From a virus (taxonomy: Duplodnaviria > Caudoviricetes), in IMG/VR virus record IMGVR_UViG_3300031993_000012, positions 1-64,000 of that record: a DNA stretch of 64,000 bases; one strand, written 5' to 3'. Both the position numbers and the translations under genes were made by a program. Numbering within the stretch: the first letter of the stretch is position 1; every line of letters starts with the position of its first letter. The notes under the pieces are model-generated. The model was not told the origin of the DNA, searched no databases, and saw only the letters and a list, made by a program, of their open reading frames with translations. This document shows positions 6,744-51,928 of the stretch, in pieces.

Positions 6744-6776
6744 AAAAAAGAATGCTCCCGTAATGGGAGCATTCTT
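6744..6776. terminator. Intrinsic terminator between convergent genes
   Basis: AAAAAAGAATGCTCCC-gtaat-GGGAGCATTCTT hairpin with an A-tract (U-tract on the minus strand). Confidence 0.75.
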
Positions 6777-6792
6777 AAATCGTTTGGACACA

Positions 6793-7455
6793 TTACTTGG
6801 CGAAATTCTTGTTAATGAATTCGATCAAACCTGCATAATTCGGATCACTGTCGAATCCGATACGACCCATTGAGTCGTAACACAGGAGTATAGTTTCTTC
6901 ATTGACAATATTCTCGTTCGTGAGTATAATTTTGTTTCTATCCGATTTCATCATCCAGTCATCAATGATAACTTTACCCGGGAAATTTATAACATGGTCG
7001 AATGTCATTAAATTAGAAATGAGTTTTGTCATTATGTAATGACTCCACTTCTTACCCATGAGATTCTCGATATTCGGATTACCACTATTTATCGATCGAA
7101 AGAACTGACCGATCTTCTTGTTGTCACCTGTTCTCAGGCTAACGACGCCGTGGTTATCAACGCCGTTGATAAGCGTATCATGCCAACGGAATCTGAAATT
7201 AAGATCATTGCTGTCATTCGTCCACACCTTTATTTCGTCTGTACCCTCGATCATAGCGATTGCTCTGTAGATGGCAACCTCAATCTCCTGGCGGATTTCG
7301 AGCGGGTGCTTCGGTGTCGGCTGTGATGTAGGGGTCTTTGTCTGTGAGGGCTGTGCTTTCGACTGGGTCTGCTTCGGGTTCACTGCATCCTTGGCGTTGT
7401 TTGTGATTTCCTTTACGTTAGAAATGATTGAGTTAATGTTGTTCATGATATCCAT
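6793..7455 (-). CDS. Hypothetical protein (accessory, probably early)
   Basis: 220-aa ORF, AAGGAG RBS, upstream ATATATATTATT promoter-like motif. Confidence 0.75.
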   Translation of the reverse strand: MDIMNNINSIISNVKEITNNAKDAVNPKQTQSKAQPSQTKTPTSQPTPKHPLEIRQEIEVAIYRAIAMIEGTDEIKVWTNDSNDLNFRFRWHDTLINGVDNHGVVSLRTGDNKKIGQFFRSINSGNPNIENLMGKKWSHYIMTKLISNLMTFDHVINFPGKVIIDDWMMKSDRNKIILTNENIVNEETILLCYDSMGRIGFDSDPNYAGLIEFINKNFAK

Positions 7456-8030: not shown

Positions 8031-8657
8031 TTAAAGCTCCACCACTTTTCTGATATATTCCTTGACATCTTCAGGGATATTGATTGTGCTGAGGAATTCC
8101 TCGAAGTCCTCAGGACGAATGTCGTCCTCGAACTTCGCGTTTCCGCTTCTTACGGTAATGAAGCATCTCTGCTTCATGCCGTATACATGAATGTATACGA
8201 CACCGTATGTGGCTCCATTAACGGAAACAGAGTCACCAAGAAGACCCTTTTCTCCTTCCCAGCGATACTGATCTACATCTGTCTGCTTCATACTCTTAGG
8301 CACGGGTATTGCTCTCCATGCCTTTGTGAGATTGAATTTCGGCTGACCACCACTCCAACTGGAAGTTGGGAGTTCAGGTTTTTTAGTCTTTTCCTTGACT
8401 TTGATCTCACAGAAATCTGTAATGGGTTCGGGCTTAACCTCTACAGGCTCTTCCTTAACCTTAACCTCGATTTCCGGCTTATTGTTGTTGAATCTCTCGG
8501 CTATGTTGCCGATGATTTCAACAAGGCTGTTGAAATTGCCACCGCTTGTGGCAATCTCTTGGGCTGAAGCCTCTGATGTGATTTCCAGTCCTTTGAGCTC
8601 TACAGGCTGGTCATCAATTGTGAATGCGAGTGAATCAAGTTTAAATGTTGTTTTCAT
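8031..8657 (-). CDS. Hypothetical protein (cassette cargo), start MKTTFK
   Basis: GAGGT RBS precedes ATG 8657; the upstream MYAGPRG extension belongs to a repeated leader. Confidence 0.75.
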   Translation of the reverse strand: MKTTFKLDSLAFTIDDQPVELKGLEITSEASAQEIATSGGNFNSLVEIIGNIAERFNNNKPEIEVKVKEEPVEVKPEPITDFCEIKVKEKTKKPELPTSSWSGGQPKFNLTKAWRAIPVPKSMKQTDVDQYRWEGEKGLLGDSVSVNGATYGVVYIHVYGMKQRCFITVRSGNAKFEDDIRPEDFEEFLSTINIPEDVKEYIRKVVEL

Positions 8658-46616: not shown

Positions 46617-46931
46617 TTAACCATTTAATTCGATACCGAATACATGTTGTACATATTTAACGTAACAATCCACATACATCAAATCATTAGCTTTGTCGTA
46701 TGTTACTTCGTAATACTTACCGTCTTGAAGATTTGTAGAAATCATTGCTTTCTGATTTCCTAAAATATATGAGTGTGTAACTTCATATACGTCATCAATA
46801 CTGAGTTTAACTTCATCAGTTGGATCTAATTGTTGACGTACAATATCAAGTACAGCTTGTCTTGCAGTAGCAATGAACTCGGTACTACCAAGAAATGGTT
46901 TATTGATCTTAATTATGTTATTCATTTTCAT
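46617..46931 (-). CDS. DUF6275-like phage protein
   Basis: LGNQKAMIST...DGKYYEVTYD....MYVDCYVK pattern. Confidence 0.7.
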   Translation of the reverse strand: MKMNNIIKINKPFLGSTEFIATARQAVLDIVRQQLDPTDEVKLSIDDVYEVTHSYILGNQKAMISTNLQDGKYYEVTYDKANDLMYVDCYVKYVQHVFGIELNG

Positions 46932-47205
46932 TCACCCCATGTTTTACACGATCTGCTTGTTCAGCATATTTTGCGTCATTGAATCTACTAAGGTCGCCTG
47001 CTAAATAGCCCGTCACGCGGCGTATACGAACAAATGGAACTGAATGTTTATGAACTTCCAGTTTTGCATATCCTTTAGAATCAAATGATATTATCAATGT
47101 ATCAATGATTTCATCAGGATATTTCTTCGTTACGTAATCAACGTATGCTTGTTTCTCGGCCTCGGATATTTCGGTGATATCACCGTGCTTGAATATGATG
47201 TTCAT
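46918..47205 (-). CDS. Small stand-alone NrdD C-terminal (glycyl radical) domain protein
   Basis: RIRRVTGYL....RFNDAKYAE..DRVKH is the class III RNR glycyl-radical loop and C-terminus; only 95 aa; AAGGAGG RBS. Confidence 0.8.
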   Translation of the reverse strand: MNIIFKHGDITEISEAEKQAYVDYVTKKYPDEIIDTLIISFDSKGYAKLEVHKHSVPFVRIRRVTGYLAGDLSRFNDAKYAEQADRVKHGVNENE

Positions 47206-47267
47206 ACAGAACCCTCCTTGATAATATAATTATATTAAACCATTGTACAATTATCTAGAATTCTTAA

Positions 47268-47295
47268 ATTCTATATTTATATAATTCTTATGTAT
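47268..47295 (+). promoter_or_regulatory. Putative early promoter driving the Cas7-like gene
   Basis: ATTCTATATTTATATAATTCTTATG identical to 30886-30910. Confidence 0.65.
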
Positions 47296-47396
47296 AATAG
47301 GAAAGTAACACTTTCTATTATCATATAATATCAATCTTTACGGGTTGTTCCCAGTGTATCTGTACAGATATGCGAATAACAAGAAAGGAGTACGTT

Positions 47397-48176
47397 ATGG
47401 CACGTACAAAGAAAACAACAGTAGAGGAAGCAACTGAGGAGAAGGTTGCATTCCAGCCCAAGAAGACAGTGAAGCTGTTCTTCTTCACAGAAATCCTTGG
47501 AAGCTGCCCCGCAGACAAGGAGATCTACTCAAAGTACATCGCAAAGAATCGTCTTGATGCACCAACCATTCAGGACGAACTCCAGATGGTACCTGAGGAA
47601 GAAGTTATCGAGCAGGGAACCACTTGCTTCCTGGTGAGGACCCACGGAAAGGATAAGGGTAAGCCCTGTCTGGCAGCGTATACAATTCTCGGTTTCATGA
47701 AAGAGAAGACCAAGTATCTCCGTCAGGAACCCGGTAATGGATTTGACAAATTCACCAACTACAAGTCCAAAATCGATGGTAATTTCAACATTGATAAACC
47801 GTTCATTACATTACATCTTCCCGAAGGAGAAGAAATGGGTATCTGTCAGAGACCTCTCAGGGCCGAGACTGCGCAGGGTCCGAGAGTAGCACTCGCTTCC
47901 AGCCTCACATGCCCTCCCGGTACAACCTGCGAATTCGAGCTCTATATCAATAACAAGGAGTTCAATAAGTACGCAATCGGTTGTCTCCGTAAAGGTTTCC
48001 TCAGTGGAACCGGTCAGTGGCGTTCTTCTCAGCAGAAAGGCAGATTCCTGTTTGAAATCTATGATGCTGATGATACTTATATTGACGGTAATACCAAAGA
48101 ACATGTAGGTTGTCTTTCAACTGATGCCAACTGGGAAGAAATGTGGAGCGACTTCCTCGACGAATATCGTCTGTAA
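47397..48176 (+). CDS. Stand-alone Cas7/RAMP-superfamily-like protein
   Basis: N-terminal strand + ILGS, PCLAAYTILGFMKE (P.I...S.KG..R equivalent), CPPGTTCEFEL strand, Gly-rich loop GTGQWRSSQQKGRF; AAAGGAG RBS. Confidence 0.75.
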   Translation: MARTKKTTVEEATEEKVAFQPKKTVKLFFFTEILGSCPADKEIYSKYIAKNRLDAPTIQDELQMVPEEEVIEQGTTCFLVRTHGKDKGKPCLAAYTILGFMKEKTKYLRQEPGNGFDKFTNYKSKIDGNFNIDKPFITLHLPEGEEMGICQRPLRAETAQGPRVALASSLTCPPGTTCEFELYINNKEFNKYAIGCLRKGFLSGTGQWRSSQQKGRFLFEIYDADDTYIDGNTKEHVGCLSTDANWEEMWSDFLDEYRL

Positions 48177-48190
48177 TACCTAATACCAAT

Positions 48191-48220
48191 AATGAGCGCG
48201 GATAAAACCGCGCTCATTTT
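48191..48220 (+). terminator. Hairpin between the Cas7-like gene and array 1 (terminator or processing site)
   Basis: AATGAGCGCGG-ataaaa-CCGCGCTCATT followed by a short T-run. Confidence 0.6.
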
Positions 48221-48249
48221 GTATGCTGACTGAAACCAGTACTGTTTTA

Positions 48250-49252
48250 AGTGTAAAGTAAAGTCGAGTTAGGTTCAGTATTGGTTCAGTGGAGTTAAGT
48301 CTAGTCATGTACAGGTGTTGTGGAGCGGCGCTGTGTTTGGGTGATGCAAAGCGAAGTCTTGCTTAGGTATAGTACGGTATTGTCCCGTATGGGTATGATA
48401 ATGTTCCGCAAAGCACAGTGAGCTTTTGTAACGGTAAAGCTGAGTATTGCAGCGTTGAGGTATAGTCAAGTATGGTTGTGTGCTGTATAGGTCGGGCGAA
48501 GTTTCGTTCTGTATAGTGACGGTATAGTTATGAAGCGTAGCGTAGAGGTATGGCACGGTTACGCGCTGTACAGGCATAGTATGGTATCGTTATGTCATGG
48601 CACTGCATTGTGGTGTCTGGCATTGGCAATGCAAAGTAACGCGAAGCATTGGTGCAGTGAGGTGTTGTTCTGTGAAGGCATCATTATGAATCGTATTGTA
48701 ATGTGTGGATTTAGCTCGGTCTAGTTTTGTCCGGTGACGGCGTAGTAATGTTAGGCGAGGCGATGCAAAGGTGTCGTGCAGTGAAGCACCGTTTAGGCAT
48801 GGTAAAGCATAGCTTTGTTTAGGTGCGGCTGAGTCTGGTCCGGTTTTGTGAAGGTGCAGCAGGGTTCCGTGGTGCACTGTGGCGTAGAGTATCGGTATAG
48901 TCACGTAAGGTTTGGTATAGGCATGGTGTAGTAAAGCATAGTTGTGGTATAGCTATGCATCGTAAGGTTTGTATTGGTATAGTGTAGTCCTGTAACGCTG
49001 AGCACTGGTGTAGCGAGGTATTGCTCTGTCGAGTGGTGGTAAAGCATGACAAGGTAATGTTGAGTAGAGGTGAAGTGAAGTCTTGCGGGGTTTTGCTGTG
49101 GTACTGTGATGCGACCTATTGCTTTGTATTGGTACAGCTCAGCACTGTAATGTCGTGTCAGGTTCAGGTACAGTTTAGCCAAGTGAGGTGGAGTATAGTA
49201 TAGGTATAGATATGTACAGTCAAATGCTGTCAAGGTTAAGCTGAGTAAAGTC
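48250..49252 (+). repeat. Pentamer-periodic NGY-NN array 1 (putative non-coding guide RNA array)
   Basis: Parses as AGT-AA AGT-CG AGT-TA GGT-TC AGT-AT TGGT-TC AGT-GG..., about 1 kb, G/T-rich, no exact repeat units. Confidence 0.9.
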
Positions 49253-49294
49253 TACTTCTGTAATGAGTAAAATATAACGAAAGGAGTCTTATCC

Positions 49295-49696
49295 ATGAAA
49301 GATAAGAAAATCAAGAAAGTTTTGAAGTCGATTCAAAACGGAGAAATCTCAGCCAAACAACTGAAAGAAATCCTTGCTGAAAACCCCGAACTCAAAGACA
49401 TCATTGACTTAGTGAATCCTGAAGTCACATGGAAGAAACATCCAATGTATCCGTTCGTGGAAACATCGAGCAATGGTCAGATTAAAGTTTCTGGTGAACT
49501 TGTAAAGCCACGGGTATGGGATGGCTTGTTGAAAGTAACGCTGCAGTATGGCAAGAAACGGTTATACGCAGCGTTACTCATATTACAATGCTGGGAACCA
49601 TGTCCGGGTAAATTAACCGACTATACTGTCGGTTACATTGACGATAACGTCAATAACCTAAAGCCGTCTAATCTATATTGGAAGGCCAAAAAATAA
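49295..49696 (+). CDS. NUMOD4/HNH-like protein, catalytic His residues apparently lost
   Basis: WKKHPMYP.VETSSNGQIK (NUMOD4-like); LYAALLILQCW replaces VHRLVA..F; VGYIDDNVNNL..SNLYW replaces V.HIDG.K.NN..NL.W; AAAGGAG RBS. Confidence 0.75.
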   Translation: MKDKKIKKVLKSIQNGEISAKQLKEILAENPELKDIIDLVNPEVTWKKHPMYPFVETSSNGQIKVSGELVKPRVWDGLLKVTLQYGKKRLYAALLILQCWEPCPGKLTDYTVGYIDDNVNNLKPSNLYWKAKK

Positions 49697-49707
49697 ACGA
49701 CAGTTTA

Positions 49708-51010
49708 TGTGTAAAGTAAAGTGTGGTTCTGTCGTGTTTTGGCATAGCAATGTGTGATATCGTTTCGTATTGGTAAAGCAGAGCATAGTGTAATGCTGTG
49801 AAGGTATGGTAGGGTAAAGTAACGCAAAGGTATCGCGTTGTTCAGTGATGTGACGGTTTGGTAGGGTAATGTAGTGTGTAGCTATGGCATAGCGATGTTC
49901 TGTGAAGTGCGGTCGCGTATTGGTATCGTAAAGTATTGCGGTGTCGCGTAGAGGTTTAGCTTGGTGCTGTATAGTACTGGTGGAGCATAGTTAGGCACAG
50001 CTGGTCTTTGTTTTGTGCTGGTATGGTATGGCGTAGTATAGTCTGCAACGGTGTAGCAAAGTAGCGCGGTGTTCAGGTATAGTGATGATAGTTTTGTTCT
50101 GTATCGGTAAAGTGCTGTATTGCTGGGTAATGGTATTGTATTGTCGCATATTGTCTTGTGAGGGTGAAGGGCAGTATTGTCGCGTAGAGTAGCGGCAAAG
50201 CATAGTGATGTCGCGCAGCGTCATGGTAAAGTCAAGTGATGCTATATGGTGTCAGGTGATGGTAATGTGGGGCAATGTGTAGTATAGTAGAGGCGAAGTC
50301 TAGCGATGCTAGGTTCTGGTGTAGTATAGTACCGGAACGTCTAGTATTGGTACAGTGGAGTACAGCGTTACGAAGTGCTGGTACTGTTAAGTGATGTGTA
50401 GTGTCGGTATGGTAATCCGTAGTGTAGTAGAGGTAATGTGGGGTGTGGCACTGTATAGGTGTGGTGTAGTGTTGTATCGTAATGTCAGGTAATGGCAACG
50501 TAGTACATGGCAATGGTTCAGTGTAGTGCCGCATAGTCACGTAGAGGTTTAGTCTGGTGCCGCATGGTCAGGTTGCGGTTTAGCCTAGTTTCGCTTAGTC
50601 CAGGTAATGTTAAGTCTAGTGTAGTTTTGGTTCAGTGATGTGTGAAGTAATGGTATAGCAATGTCTGGTACTGGTATGGTATAGTCACGTGAAGTGTCGG
50701 TTTGGCGGAGTAAGGTTTAGCTCAGTGATGGCGTGGTAGAGTAAAGCGCGGCACATCGTCGTAATGGCGTAGTCTCGTATAGTATAGTAAAGGTAAAGTG
50801 AAGTATAGTGCTGTAATGTGCCGGTGAGGCAAAGCAAGGTCCCGCTTGGTATTGGTTTGGTGCAGTCAAGTTATGTCACGGTAACGCAGTACATAGTAAT
50901 GTATGGTACAGGCTCAGTTCAGTAGAGCTATGTTTTGGCGAAGCGGGGTATTGTCAAGCGTAGTATGGGTTTCGCAGGGTCCTGTTATGCATTGTGTCGG
51001 TGCTGTGTGA
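49708..51010 (+). repeat. Pentamer-periodic NGY-NN array 2 (putative non-coding guide RNA array)
   Basis: Same grammar as array 1, about 1.3 kb; begins with the same GTGTAAAGTAAAGT. Confidence 0.9.
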
Positions 51011-51033
51011 CAGCATTAAAAACCTACACACTT

Positions 51034-51076
51034 AAAAAAAGAATATTCCCGGGTCGCTCCCGGGTATTCTTTTTTT
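51034..51076. terminator. Bidirectional intrinsic terminator closing the array locus
   Basis: AAAAAAAGAATAT-t-CCCGGG-tcgct-CCCGGG-TATTCTTTTTTT. Confidence 0.8.
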
Positions 51077-51115
51077 GTTCACGATTTGATAATTTATACG
51101 AAAGGAGTTGTTTTT

Positions 51116-51928
51116 ATGGCAACTGTATTACAACCAGACCGAGTTGTTACATGTAACGGAGTCAAGGTAAATCAATATTTTCTGACCGTGAACAATCCAT
51201 TTCATATTGATATGCCTACATCGGAAATGAATAAAGTCATTGGTGTAACAATTCACAATACCGATTGGATATCTGTTATCCAAGGTAGTACACCCGCAGA
51301 GCAATATACACGTGCAACCGTCAATGGTAATATGAATGATGTCCGTGTTCATTATTATGTTGATGATAAATGTGCATGGCAAAATTTACCATTGAATCGT
51401 GCAGGATGGCATGCTGCTGATGGTAAAGGTGATGGTAACAGAAAGACAATCGCTATTGAATGCATCATGTCACCAAATTACAATGGTATCGATCAAGCAT
51501 CAGAATTAAACTGTGCACGTTTGGCTGCGTATTTACTCCATGAATACAAACTCGATATCAATCATTTGTATACACATACACATTGGTTGAATGTTAAAAA
51601 TGGTAAACGTGGTGATGTTGATTTTTTGAATACGGATCCCAGCCCCGAGAAACGGTGCCCTTTGTATATTCTTCCACATTGGAATGAATTCAAAGAAAAA
51701 GTTCATGATTATTTGAATGAACTGAACAATGGTAATGAAATCAATCATACAAATGATATGATATATTTGAAACAAGGAACTCCGATATATCCGAACGCGG
51801 GTGTGAATACCAGAATGAGTGGAATAATAAAAACATCATGCAAATATACAATCGTTGAAAGACGTACTGCATATGGTATAACATGGGGTAGATTAAAATC
51901 AAATAAAGGATGGGTTAAATTGAAATAA
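51116..51928 (+). CDS. Endolysin, N-acetylmuramoyl-L-alanine amidase (Amidase_2, XlyA/CwlA-like) with C-terminal SH3-like domain
   Basis: VTIHNT, VHYYVDD, GWHAADG, IAIEC, H..W...KRCP zinc ligands; C-terminal YTIVE....WGRLKS..GWV. Confidence 0.88.
   Translation: MATVLQPDRVVTCNGVKVNQYFLTVNNPFHIDMPTSEMNKVIGVTIHNTDWISVIQGSTPAEQYTRATVNGNMNDVRVHYYVDDKCAWQNLPLNRAGWHAADGKGDGNRKTIAIECIMSPNYNGIDQASELNCARLAAYLLHEYKLDINHLYTHTHWLNVKNGKRGDVDFLNTDPSPEKRCPLYILPHWNEFKEKVHDYLNELNNGNEINHTNDMIYLKQGTPIYPNAGVNTRMSGIIKTSCKYTIVERRTAYGITWGRLKSNKGWVKLK

What the first reader, a model, noticed from the sequence alone, without database searches (positions are those of the whole stretch)
47268..51076. Stand-alone Cas7/RAMP-like gene coupled to kilobase NGY-NN pentamer arrays: candidate non-CRISPR RNA-guided system
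Seen: one co-oriented unit of promoter, RAMP-like gene, hairpin, about 1.0 kb array, dead HNH-like gene, about 1.3 kb array and terminator. The arrays hold GY (GT/GC) fixed every 5 nt while the other positions vary. They are G/T-rich, more GC-rich than the genome, and have no repeat-spacer layout. No cas1/2/3/5/6/10 gene is in the window. Established: Cas7 polymerises along guide RNA with a fixed nucleotide period. Inference: each subunit grips a constant NGY and displays the variable bases, so the arrays encode target sequences in an interleaved, non-contiguous code, perhaps against competing phages or host genes. I recall a recent report of phage RAMP proteins with GGY-NN RNAs (named VIPR). 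That recollection is unverified, and the grammar here (NGY, unit punctuation, very long arrays) may be a distinct variant.
Basis: partly seen in the sequence, partly recalled or inferred. Interest (0 to 1): 0.96.

Follow-up and report, generated by a model that had tools for sequence, protein, structure and literature searches.

The report
Phage VIPR system with kilobase arrays
A giant uncultured gut/rumen phage carries a VIPR system, a CRISPR-like kind first described in 2026: a lone Cas7-like protein plus guide RNAs written in five-base units. It is a real and unusually large copy (about 450 units) of a known kind, and what it targets is still unknown.

Summary
Two same-strand arrays (about 48247-49262 and 49706-51012) consist of 449 units. 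94% of them start with G-pyrimidine, and a 6-base unit (extra G) falls every 5-8 units, giving about 78 different 26-41-nt modules. Gene 47397-48176 folds as a Cas7/Csm3/Cmr4-type RAMP (Z up to 11.7). It aligns over its full length, though weakly (E 1e-4), to SUSP1 Vipr, and both share the G-x-G-[D/Q]-W-R glycine loop. All 67 homologue loci I fetched carry a G-rich period-5 array on the gene's strand. Gene 49295-49696 is a truncated I-HmuI-like HNH with the catalytic His replaced by Tyr; it is conserved in the subfamily and is a likely accessory (vap) protein.

This scan has also reported VIPR on other DNA (133 notes). I call it a new member of a known kind.

Possibly new points:
- The arrays total 2.4 kb and have no tail.
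- The +1 punctuation runs through the whole family and peaks at 5-6 units.
- Whole modules are gained or lost between close relatives, although the genome has no Cas1 or Cas2.

No target was found under any tested reading rule.

The parts
47201..47396 (+). AT-rich upstream region with a sigma-70-like match (47201-47230) and the ribosome-binding site of vipr. Promoter function is not shown.
   Evidence: The consensus match is no more frequent than in shuffles. The region aligns with relative L006.
47397..48176 (+). vipr: a 259-aa Cas7-like RAMP protein (RRM core, beta-hairpin thumb at about residues 148-172, glycine loop G204-x-x-Q207-W208-R209...G215-x-F217).
   Evidence: AF2 model, pLDDT 84. 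Foldseek top hits are all Csm3/Cmr4/Cas7. VIA Z is 11.7 for Cmr4 and 11.3 for Csm3. hhalign to the SUSP1 Vipr family gives E 1.2e-4 over 182 columns. At least 191 homologues, none with a Pfam domain.
48191..48218 (+). 11-bp hairpin directly after the vipr stop codon, followed by TTTTGT. It could be an attenuator, a leaky terminator or a processing/stability element.
   Evidence: L006 has a compensatory A-T to G-C change. A hairpin of different sequence sits at the same place in L007, L010 and L012.
48247..49262 (+). vrRNA array A1: 197 G-Y-N-N-N units in about 34 modules, each closed by a 6-base unit ending in an extra G. It begins TGTAAAGTAAAGT.
49295..49696 (+). Candidate vap: a 133-aa I-HmuI-like HNH_3-type protein. 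Tyr114 replaces the catalytic His, and the protein ends before the metal-binding Asn/His, so it is presumably nuclease-dead.
   Evidence: PHROG 959 HNH endonuclease, E 6.7e-11. Invariant G-Y-x-D-x-N...N-L-Y-W in 5 orthologues. The AF2 model matches 1u3e_M at E 1.9e-4, TM 0.53. The alignment to I-HmuI puts Tyr on the DH-K-D-G-N His. Found only in the close subfamily, always next to vipr.
49706..51012 (+). vrRNA array A2: 252 units in about 44 modules. It has the same start motif as A1. Three adjacent paralogous 31-nt modules lie at 50515-50621.
51048..51076 (+). Intrinsic terminator (6 G-C pairs, then a T-run) that closes the unit.

Best explanation
This is a VIPR (Viral Interference Programmable Repeat) system of an uncultured gut/rumen jumbo phage.

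Proposed mechanism, by analogy with SUSP1 VIPR:
1. The operon vipr - array 1 - dead-HNH gene - array 2 is transcribed on the + strand.
2. Vipr protomers polymerise on the array RNA, one per 5-nt unit. Each sequesters the constant G-Y (plus the preceding, here unconstrained, base) and displays the variable bases.
3. The displayed bases pair non-contiguously with double-stranded DNA of a competing mobile element, or possibly of the host, and silence it.

The extra G every 5-8 units divides the 2.4 kb into about 78 different modules of 26-41 nt. Modules are the units of gain and loss, so each most likely acts as one short, tail-less guide with a 15-24-bp footprint. The nuclease-dead HNH-like protein is the accessory (vap) partner, probably a DNA binder.

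Shown here: the fold, the array grammar, the family-wide gene-array linkage, module turnover, and loss of the HNH catalytic residues.

Inferred: transcription, RNP formation, DNA targeting, the reading rule and the targets.
For: Protein:
- RAMP fold at high confidence. AF2 pLDDT is 84. 168 PDB chains score E<=1e-3 and every listed hit is a CRISPR RAMP. Z is 10-11.7 for Cmr4, Csm3 and type VII Cas7.
- A profile search hits Cas7/Csm4 at the glycine loop (E 0.003).
- I identified SUSP1 Vipr in KT454805.2 from the published residue numbers H17, K33, E71 and M72.
- The two family profiles align end to end (E 1.2e-4, 182 columns). SUSP1 D177-W178-R179 falls on Q207-W208-R209, and H17 falls on S36.
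- W and R, which contact G2 and Y3, are kept. Both G1-contacting residues are replaced, which fits the relaxed first base seen here (inference).

Arrays:
- The grammar is as given in the observation check.
- 71 clean modules are all different.

Linkage: 45/45 IMG/VR loci, 12/12 GTDB loci, 4/4 GenBank phage loci and 6 close-relative loci carry G-rich period-5 arrays on the gene's strand, nearly all abutting the gene.

Evolution, window against L006 (95% aa identity):
- The arrays are 86-94% identical, with indels of 31, 31, 41, 62 and 52 nt, that is, whole modules.
- In A1 the substitution rate is 3.7% at G and at Y, 11-12% at positions 4 and 5, and 0/32 at the extra G.
- These indels are not multiples of 3, so the arrays are not coding.

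Other points:
- The dinucleotide at positions 3-4 tracks codon positions 1-2 usage (r 0.80), as expected if the skipped base is the wobble base (logic published).
- A 6-unit, 18-bp footprint works in SUSP1.
- No Cas1 or Cas2 in 182 kb, and no Rfam hit or ribozyme.
Against: - Sequence homology to experimentally studied Vipr is weak (hhalign probability 55%).
- There is no repeated 3' tail or pseudoknot, which type II vrRNAs have and which caps their filament.
- No target was found under any rule in the own genome, in relatives, or in limited IMG/VR scans. The reading rule (NN + 1 skip, NNN, or the effect of the extra G) is therefore untested.
- No promoter in front of the arrays could be identified, and a strong hairpin sits between vipr and array 1.
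- I could not see the preprint's figures or tables. Whether this clade is one of its seven types, and whether its 'staggered arrays' are this architecture, is unverified.
Confidence: 0.85

Rival explanations
1. Same VIPR machinery, but the arrays act as very long continuous filaments rather than as about 78 separate guides. The extra nucleotide once per helical turn would be a hinge or strain-relief bulge, letting hundreds of protomers coat one RNA and read long stretches of target.
For: Module length peaks at 5-6 units across the family: 303 and 275 of 1199 modules, against 98 and 80 expected if slips fell at random. SUSP1 Vipr filaments have 6 protomers per turn when free and 5 when bound to DNA. 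There is no tail or obvious processing signal between modules, and no ribozyme.
Against: Modules are gained, lost and replaced singly between close relatives, as expected for independent cassettes. Seeds that cross module boundaries found nothing in IMG/VR, and in-module seed hits did not extend into neighbouring modules at offsets 0-2. All modules are unrelated in sequence.
Confidence: 0.2
2. The system is aimed at the host, not at rival phages. The large guide library would silence many host genes (defence, transcription) during lytic infection by a jumbo phage.
For: A library of about 78 modules in a lytic-looking, roughly 270-kb phage (record 182 kb at 68% estimated completeness) is far larger than the 4 guides of SUSP1. 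No match was found in related phages or in IMG/VR seeds. Satellite solo vrRNAs do direct SUSP1 Vipr to host REP sites.
Against: All targets published so far are mobile elements or host decoy sites. The host is unknown, so this was not tested at all. Missing phage targets is weak evidence, given that only five exact-match seeds were scanned.
Confidence: 0.15
3. The complex targets RNA, as its nearest solved structural neighbours Csm3 and Cmr4 do, rather than double-stranded DNA.
For: The best structural matches are type III RNA-targeting backbone subunits. The (p3,p4) usage fits the sense strand better than the antisense strand (r 0.80 against 0.48). That would make the guides sense-like. It does not favour mRNA pairing, but it does show a strand bias.
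Against: The only studied Viprs bind dsDNA on either strand. A sense-like guide cannot pair with mRNA. No nuclease partner is active here, since the HNH is dead.
Confidence: 0.05
4. The arrays are not guides at all. They would be selfish or structural tandem repeats, or DNA-level binding sites that merely sit next to the gene.
For: No transcript, target or binding data exist for this clade.
Against: Gene-array linkage holds in 67/67 loci across phyla, always on the gene's strand. G and Y are conserved while other positions vary. The detector finds no such arrays elsewhere. The grammar matches that of proven vrRNAs.
Confidence: 0.03

Closest known systems
Type II VIPR of Escherichia phage SUSP1 (Vipr + vap1 + four vrRNAs; bioRxiv 10.64898/2026.04.26.720920, .720927 and 10.64898/2026.10.15.759431)
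   Same: A lone RAMP protein of about 20-30 kDa with an RRM core, thumb and G-x-G-x-W-R glycine loop. A small accessory gene. Same-strand pentamer arrays flanking the genes, with constant G-Y and variable bases. Phage-borne, with no cas genes and no CRISPR array. SUSP1 arrays also contain AGT units in place of GGT.
   Different: Only remote sequence similarity (E 1e-4). The first G of GGY is not conserved, and both of its contact residues (H17, D177) are replaced. There is no 3' pseudoknot tail. SUSP1 has runs of 9-16 units without a slip; here runs are 5-8 units closed by one extra G. About 450 units against about 50. The accessory protein is a dead HNH, not vap1 (P0122).
Other VIPR architectures named in the preprints: YNNNG/NNNNG repeats and 'staggered' vrRNA arrays (fig. 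S17, S18 legends); non-canonical WGT/NN and TGH/NN clusters (bioRxiv 10.64898/2026.10.21.760802)
   Same: Y-N-N-N-G is exactly the unit seen here. WGT/NN fits the composition: the base before G is A/T in 68% of units, and Y is T in 70%. [quoted passage not shown]
   Different: I could read only legends and text, so equivalence is unverified. The text gives no array sizes, no 5-6-unit module rule and no dead-HNH partner, and it says the staggered arrays were not among those confirmed by sRNA-seq.
Class 1 CRISPR backbone subunits Cas7/Csm3/Cmr4 (e.g. PDB 6s6b, 9g9a, 6ae2, 8yhd)
   Same: Fold (Z 10-11.7), thumb hairpin and C-terminal glycine loop. They polymerise on guide RNA with a fixed register and flip bases periodically.
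   Different: A 5-nt period against 6-nt. No repeat-spacer array, no Cas5/6/10/11, and no Cas1-Cas2. The guide information is interleaved with the constant bases.
I-HmuI, HNH homing endonuclease of Bacillus phage SPO1 (PDB 1u3e), for gene 49295-49696
   Same: N-terminal beta-sheet plus the HNH_3 core. The motif V-x-[H/Y]-x-D-x-N...N-L-x-W aligns.
   Different: The catalytic His is Tyr in all five orthologues. The chain stops before the metal-binding residue and the C-terminal DNA-binding helices. It has an extra N-terminal three-helix segment (residues 1-40).

Membership tests
VIPR system | Vipr protein with a RAMP fold: RRM core, glycine-rich loop, thumb | tested here: met
   AF2 pLDDT 84. 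Foldseek and VIA top hits are exclusively Csm3/Cmr4/Cas7, Z up to 11.7. Conserved G-x-G-Q-W-R-x-x-G-x-G-x-F loop and a beta-hairpin at 148-172.
VIPR system | Sequence homology to an experimentally studied Vipr (SUSP1 / X1U2U4 family) | tested here: inconclusive
   hhalign of a 49-sequence profile against a 30-sequence profile: probability 55%, E 1.2e-4, 182 columns, full length, glycine loops in register. The single sequence gives probability 31%. No solved Vipr chain was matched in the PDB copies searched.
VIPR system | Tandem pentanucleotide array next to vipr on the same strand, with constant positions alternating with hypervariable ones | tested here: met
   449 units, 94% G-Y. The same holds in 67/67 homologue loci. 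The motif is N-G-Y-N-N rather than G-G-Y-N-N.
VIPR system | Minimal locus: no CRISPR array, no other cas genes, one small accessory (vap) gene | tested here: met
   No Cas1 or Cas2 in 182 kb. Neighbours are DUF6275, an NrdD-like fragment and an amidase. A conserved 93-136-aa HNH-like gene sits next to vipr in 5 subfamily loci. Cas3/5/6/10 profiles were not run.
VIPR system | Mainly viral or proviral carriage | tested here: met
   The record is an IMG/VR virus. Homologues lie in 45 IMG/VR contigs, 4 GenBank phage records and 12 bacterial assemblies.
VIPR system | Array is transcribed and the RNA co-purifies with Vipr | not testable with these tools
VIPR system | Targets dsDNA by the NN + 1-nt-skip rule | tested here: inconclusive
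   No match above shuffled controls for 8-20 rules in local data. IMG/VR seeds gave chance-level hits or none. The only indirect support is codon-like usage of positions 3-4.
Type II VIPR (SUSP1-like) | vrRNAs of 9-16 YNNGG repeats capped by a conserved structured 3' tail | tested here: not met
   Runs of 5-8 units, no repeated tail, no Rfam or structured element. SUSP1 arrays, read for comparison, show 14 units without a slip followed by a tail.
CRISPR-Cas class 1 | Repeat-spacer array plus Cas1-Cas2 and a multi-subunit effector | tested here: not met
   No repeat-spacer layout. No Cas1 or Cas2.
HNH endonuclease (gene 49295-49696) | beta-beta-alpha-metal core with a catalytic His and a metal-binding Asn/His | tested here: not met
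   Fold and family match, but the His position is an invariant Tyr and the chain ends before the last motif.

The most novel reading that the evidence does not exclude
The one-base punctuation defines a vrRNA architecture that the preprints' readable text does not describe (their figures were not viewable): tail-less guide modules, each one turn of the Vipr helix (5-6 protomers), strung by the dozen into kilobase libraries. Whole modules are inserted, deleted and swapped between near-identical phages. That would be a Cas1-independent way of updating a heritable guide repertoire, with a domesticated dead HNH protein as partner.
Probability: 0.25. Interest if true: 0.8.

Novelty: new member of a known kind. 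Interest (0 to 1): 0.5.

Why it matters
VIPR is a months-old class of RNA-guided DNA recognition, proposed as the ancestor of the CRISPR backbone proteins. Only the SUSP1-type has been studied in depth.

This locus and its 60-odd relatives form a divergent, gut-associated clade that differs from that type in four ways:
- The constant motif is reduced to G-Y, or to G alone in distant relatives.
- The guides lack the structured tail thought to cap the filament.
- The arrays reach 2.4 kb.
- Close relatives differ by whole modules.

These differences make several questions testable. How short can a working guide be? What defines guide ends when there is no tail? What does the extra base do? How do arrays gain new guides without Cas1? 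The pair window/L006 is a ready-made natural experiment for the last question.

Tried and rejected
1. Self-targeting. Eight reading rules were tested: NN at positions 3-4 with 0-3 skipped bases, positions 3-5 with 0-2 skipped, and positions 4-5 with 1 skipped. Each was run with 0 or 1 extra target base at the 6-nt unit, using 8-unit windows over the 182-kb genome. Real and shuffled guides scored the same.

2. Arrays of relatives L006, L007, L008, L010 and L012 against this genome gave the same negative result.

3. All-against-all search: 7,782 units from 56 loci against 643 kb of fetched loci, 20 rules, exact gapped seeds. Only step-5 rules showed an excess, which is array-to-array homology and not targeting (an earlier version timed out).

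4. Whole modules against vipr and neighbouring genes of the family: 85 perfect hits against 74-96 in shuffles.

5. IMG/VR exact scans under NNx.
- One clean 8-unit module gave 14 hits, about the chance number. None extended into neighbouring modules and the skipped bases did not match.
- A 10-unit seed crossing a module boundary, and 9-10-unit modules from L042, L058 and L030, gave 0 hits.
- This is a very thin sample of about 78 modules, so it does not show that targets are absent.

6. Reading modules as codons or as codon positions 1-2 showed no recognisable protein motif by eye. Stop triplets are not clearly depleted (14 seen against 19.5 expected).

7. Test for a shared strand orientation of units within a module (over-dispersion of sense/antisense likelihood): no signal, low power.

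8. Module duplication: only slightly above the null, apart from three adjacent 31-nt modules and one 11/12 pair.

9. Rfam: no hit, so the arrays are not interspersed with hammerhead ribozymes.

10. Pfam and PHROGs gave no family for the RAMP protein.

11. megablast of the locus against GenBank phages found nothing.

14. The preprint's supplementary tables and figures are not held, so the type assignment could not be looked up.


Full report
**What is there.**

Reading 47000-51400 and listing ORFs shows one co-oriented unit:
- a 259-aa gene at 47397-48176, with a good ribosome-binding site; its N-terminus MARTKK is shared with homologues;
- an 11-bp hairpin at 48191-48218;
- about 1.0 kb without a plausible gene;
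- a 133-aa gene at 49295-49696;
- about 1.3 kb without a gene;
- a G-C-rich hairpin at 51048-51064 with a T-run, followed by an Amidase_2 endolysin gene.

The minus-strand ORFs of 77-110 aa inside the two gene-free stretches are artefacts. Close relatives differ there by 31-, 41-, 52- and 62-nt indels, which no reading frame would tolerate.

**The periodicity is real and more regular than the finding states.**

- Base identity at lag 5 is 0.42-0.45, against 0.16-0.29 at lags 1-4. Later peaks drift to 16, 21 and 26.
- A dynamic-programming parse gives 197 + 252 units, and 422 of them begin with G-pyrimidine. Position 1 is G in 95% and position 2 is C/T in about 98%. Positions 3-5 each carry about 1.9 bits.
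- Every 5-8 units one unit has six bases, and the extra base is G in 76 of 78 cases.
- The arrays therefore consist of modules of 26, 31, 36 or 41 nt. Of 71 cleanly parsed modules, 30 have 5 units, 30 have 6, 8 have 7 and 3 have 8, and no two are alike.
- Both arrays begin with TGTAAAGTAAAGT.
- These are the only period-5 regions in the whole 182-kb record. The detector called nothing in about 131 kb of unrelated viral DNA, and in phage SUSP1 it found exactly the two published vrRNA regions.

**The protein.**

- Pfam and PHROGs give nothing, but at least 191 homologues exist in metagenomes.
- An AlphaFold model built on 49 of them (pLDDT 84) matches only CRISPR RAMP backbone subunits. Foldseek E is about 1e-6 for Csm3/Cmr4/Cas7, with 168 chains at E<=1e-3. 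VIA-align Z is 11.7 for Cmr4, 11.3 for Csm3 and 10.4 for type VII Cas7.
- The family profile hits Cas7 and Csm4 at the C-terminal glycine loop.
- In BFVD the best match is a phage protein already labelled as RAMP superfamily.

**The recalled report exists.**

- Two April 2026 bioRxiv preprints (10.64898/2026.04.26.720920 and .720927) define VIPR. A Vipr RAMP protein polymerises one protomer per pentamer on vrRNAs of GGY/NN units. It sequesters GGY and lets NN pair with dsDNA, skipping every third target base. Targets are rival mobile elements.
- They list seven types, six vap families, alternative NNNGG/YNNNG/NNNNG repeats, 'staggered' arrays and ribozyme-interspersed arrays.
- An October preprint (10.64898/2026.10.15.759431) shows function in infection, an 18-bp footprint on a satellite recombinase, and alignment of the skipped bases with wobble positions.
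- Another (10.64898/2026.10.21.760802) reports non-canonical motifs such as WGT/NN.

**Link to bona fide Vipr.**

- I located SUSP1 Vipr in KT454805.2 (28474-29061, minus strand). Its residues H17, K33, E71 and M72 match the numbers given in the structure paper.
- A 30-sequence profile of its family aligns end to end with the profile of the present family (E 1.2e-4, probability 55%, 182 columns). This is weak but collinear.
- The SUSP1 glycine loop G-V-G-D177-W178-R179 falls on G-x-G-Q207-W208-R209.
- In SUSP1, W178 stacks on G2 and R179 holds Y3, while H17 and D177 read G1. Here W and R are invariant or nearly so, and the two G1 readers are replaced by S36 and Q207.
- That is what one would expect for arrays that keep G-Y but have lost the first G. 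This last step is inference.

**Gene-array linkage across the family.**

- All 45 IMG/VR loci with a homologue (26-42% identity) contain G-rich period-5 arrays of 150-1000 nt on the gene's strand, and 43 of these lie next to the gene.
- The same is true of 12/12 bacterial assemblies, including Eggerthella, Ellagibacter, Lachnospiraceae, Saccharibacteria, Anaerolineae and others.
- It also holds for 4/4 GenBank faecal phage records and for the close relatives L006-L012.
- In distant relatives only the G is constant, yet the 6-base unit recurs just the same. Over 1,199 modules the length peaks at 5 (303) and 6 (275) units, where random placement would give 98 and 80.
- SUSP1 arrays have no such slips.
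- The SUSP1 filament has six protomers per turn when free and five when bound to DNA. The match with module length is striking but unexplained.

**How the arrays evolve.**

- L006 encodes a 95%-identical protein and has the same layout.
- Array 1 is 93.6% identical, but L006 has two extra 31-nt modules inserted exactly at module junctions, and two short cassettes are replaced.
- The distal half of array 2 is rearranged, with 31-, 41-, 52- and 62-nt differences.
- Substitutions in array 1 spare G, Y and the extra G (3.7%, 3.7% and 0/32) and concentrate at positions 4 and 5 (11-12%). Array 2 shows C/T exchanges at Y.
- Modules are thus the unit of turnover, as spacers are in CRISPR, although the 182-kb record has no Cas1 or Cas2.

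**The second gene.**

- It matches PHROG 959, HNH endonuclease (E 6.7e-11).
- Its model matches I-HmuI (1u3e, E 1.9e-4, TM 0.53).
- The alignment puts an invariant Tyr on the catalytic His, and the protein ends before the metal-binding residue.
- Orthologues (44-100% identity) sit beside vipr in all five subfamily loci and nowhere else in the fetched data.
- It is therefore a domesticated, probably DNA-binding, accessory protein and not a passing homing endonuclease.

**Targets.**

- No reading rule gave matches above shuffled controls in the phage's own genome, in relatives, or in 643 kb of family loci.
- Five exact gapped seeds in IMG/VR gave chance-level hits or none.
- The only indirect support for the published rule is that the dinucleotides at positions 3-4 follow codon positions 1-2 usage of this phage's genes (r 0.80). 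That is better than any other pairing of positions or the antisense reading.
- The host is unknown. Earlier notes of this scan call the record a rumen jumbo phage, which I did not test. CheckV puts it at 68% complete.

**Verdict.**

Because VIPR, its non-canonical motifs and abutting arrays are already in preprints, and this scan has met VIPR loci on many other genomes (133 notes), the locus is a new member of a known kind.

What may go beyond the literature I could read:
- the family-wide one-turn punctuation;
- the size of the libraries;
- cassette-wise turnover of modules;
- the dead-HNH partner.

These points are worth a specialist's look but are not shown to be new.

Noticed in passing
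window 46617-47205 (- strand): Two small divergent genes sit upstream of vipr: a DUF6275 protein (E 3e-18) and a 95-aa ORF matching only the last 30 residues of anaerobic ribonucleotide reductase NrdD (E 3e-5). Both keep this position in relatives L006, L008 and L010.
   Followed up: partly
window 50515-50621: Three adjacent 31-nt modules are 72% alike (Tandem Repeats Finder, period 31, 3.5 copies). This is the clearest case of module duplication and divergence inside an array.
   Followed up: partly
L008 about 6773-6815 and 8152-8192: In the 66%-identical relative, both arrays are preceded by a duplicated leader of about 45 nt (AAACGGGTGAATCAA...TTGTATCGTAGCC). It may be a promoter or a processing signal. 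The window has no such duplicated leader, only the shared start TGTAAAGTAAAGT.
   Followed up: no
window 48191-48218; L006, L007, L010, L012 just after the vipr stop codon: A stable hairpin follows the vipr stop codon in every subfamily member. The sequences are unrelated, and there is one compensatory pair change between the window and L006. The position, not the sequence, is conserved.
   Followed up: partly
L006 6864-7229 (- strand): A 121-aa 'gene' was called inside the array of a public assembly. It is an artefact of the stop-poor reverse strand. Such calls could hide these arrays from searches restricted to intergenic regions.
   Followed up: no
L073 (CAYYEN010000008.1, 'Spirochaetaceae' MAG, 22.9-kb contig): It holds a 69%-identical Vipr with two arrays split by a 400-nt gap, the same layout as the window. 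It is probably a phage contig binned into a bacterial MAG.
   Followed up: no
window 47397-47460 and 48060-48176 (protein residues 1-21 and 222-259): The subfamily's Vipr has a disordered Lys/Glu-rich N-terminal tail and a C-terminal extension of about 38 residues with a helix (246-257). Most homologues, at 190-220 aa, lack both.
   Followed up: no
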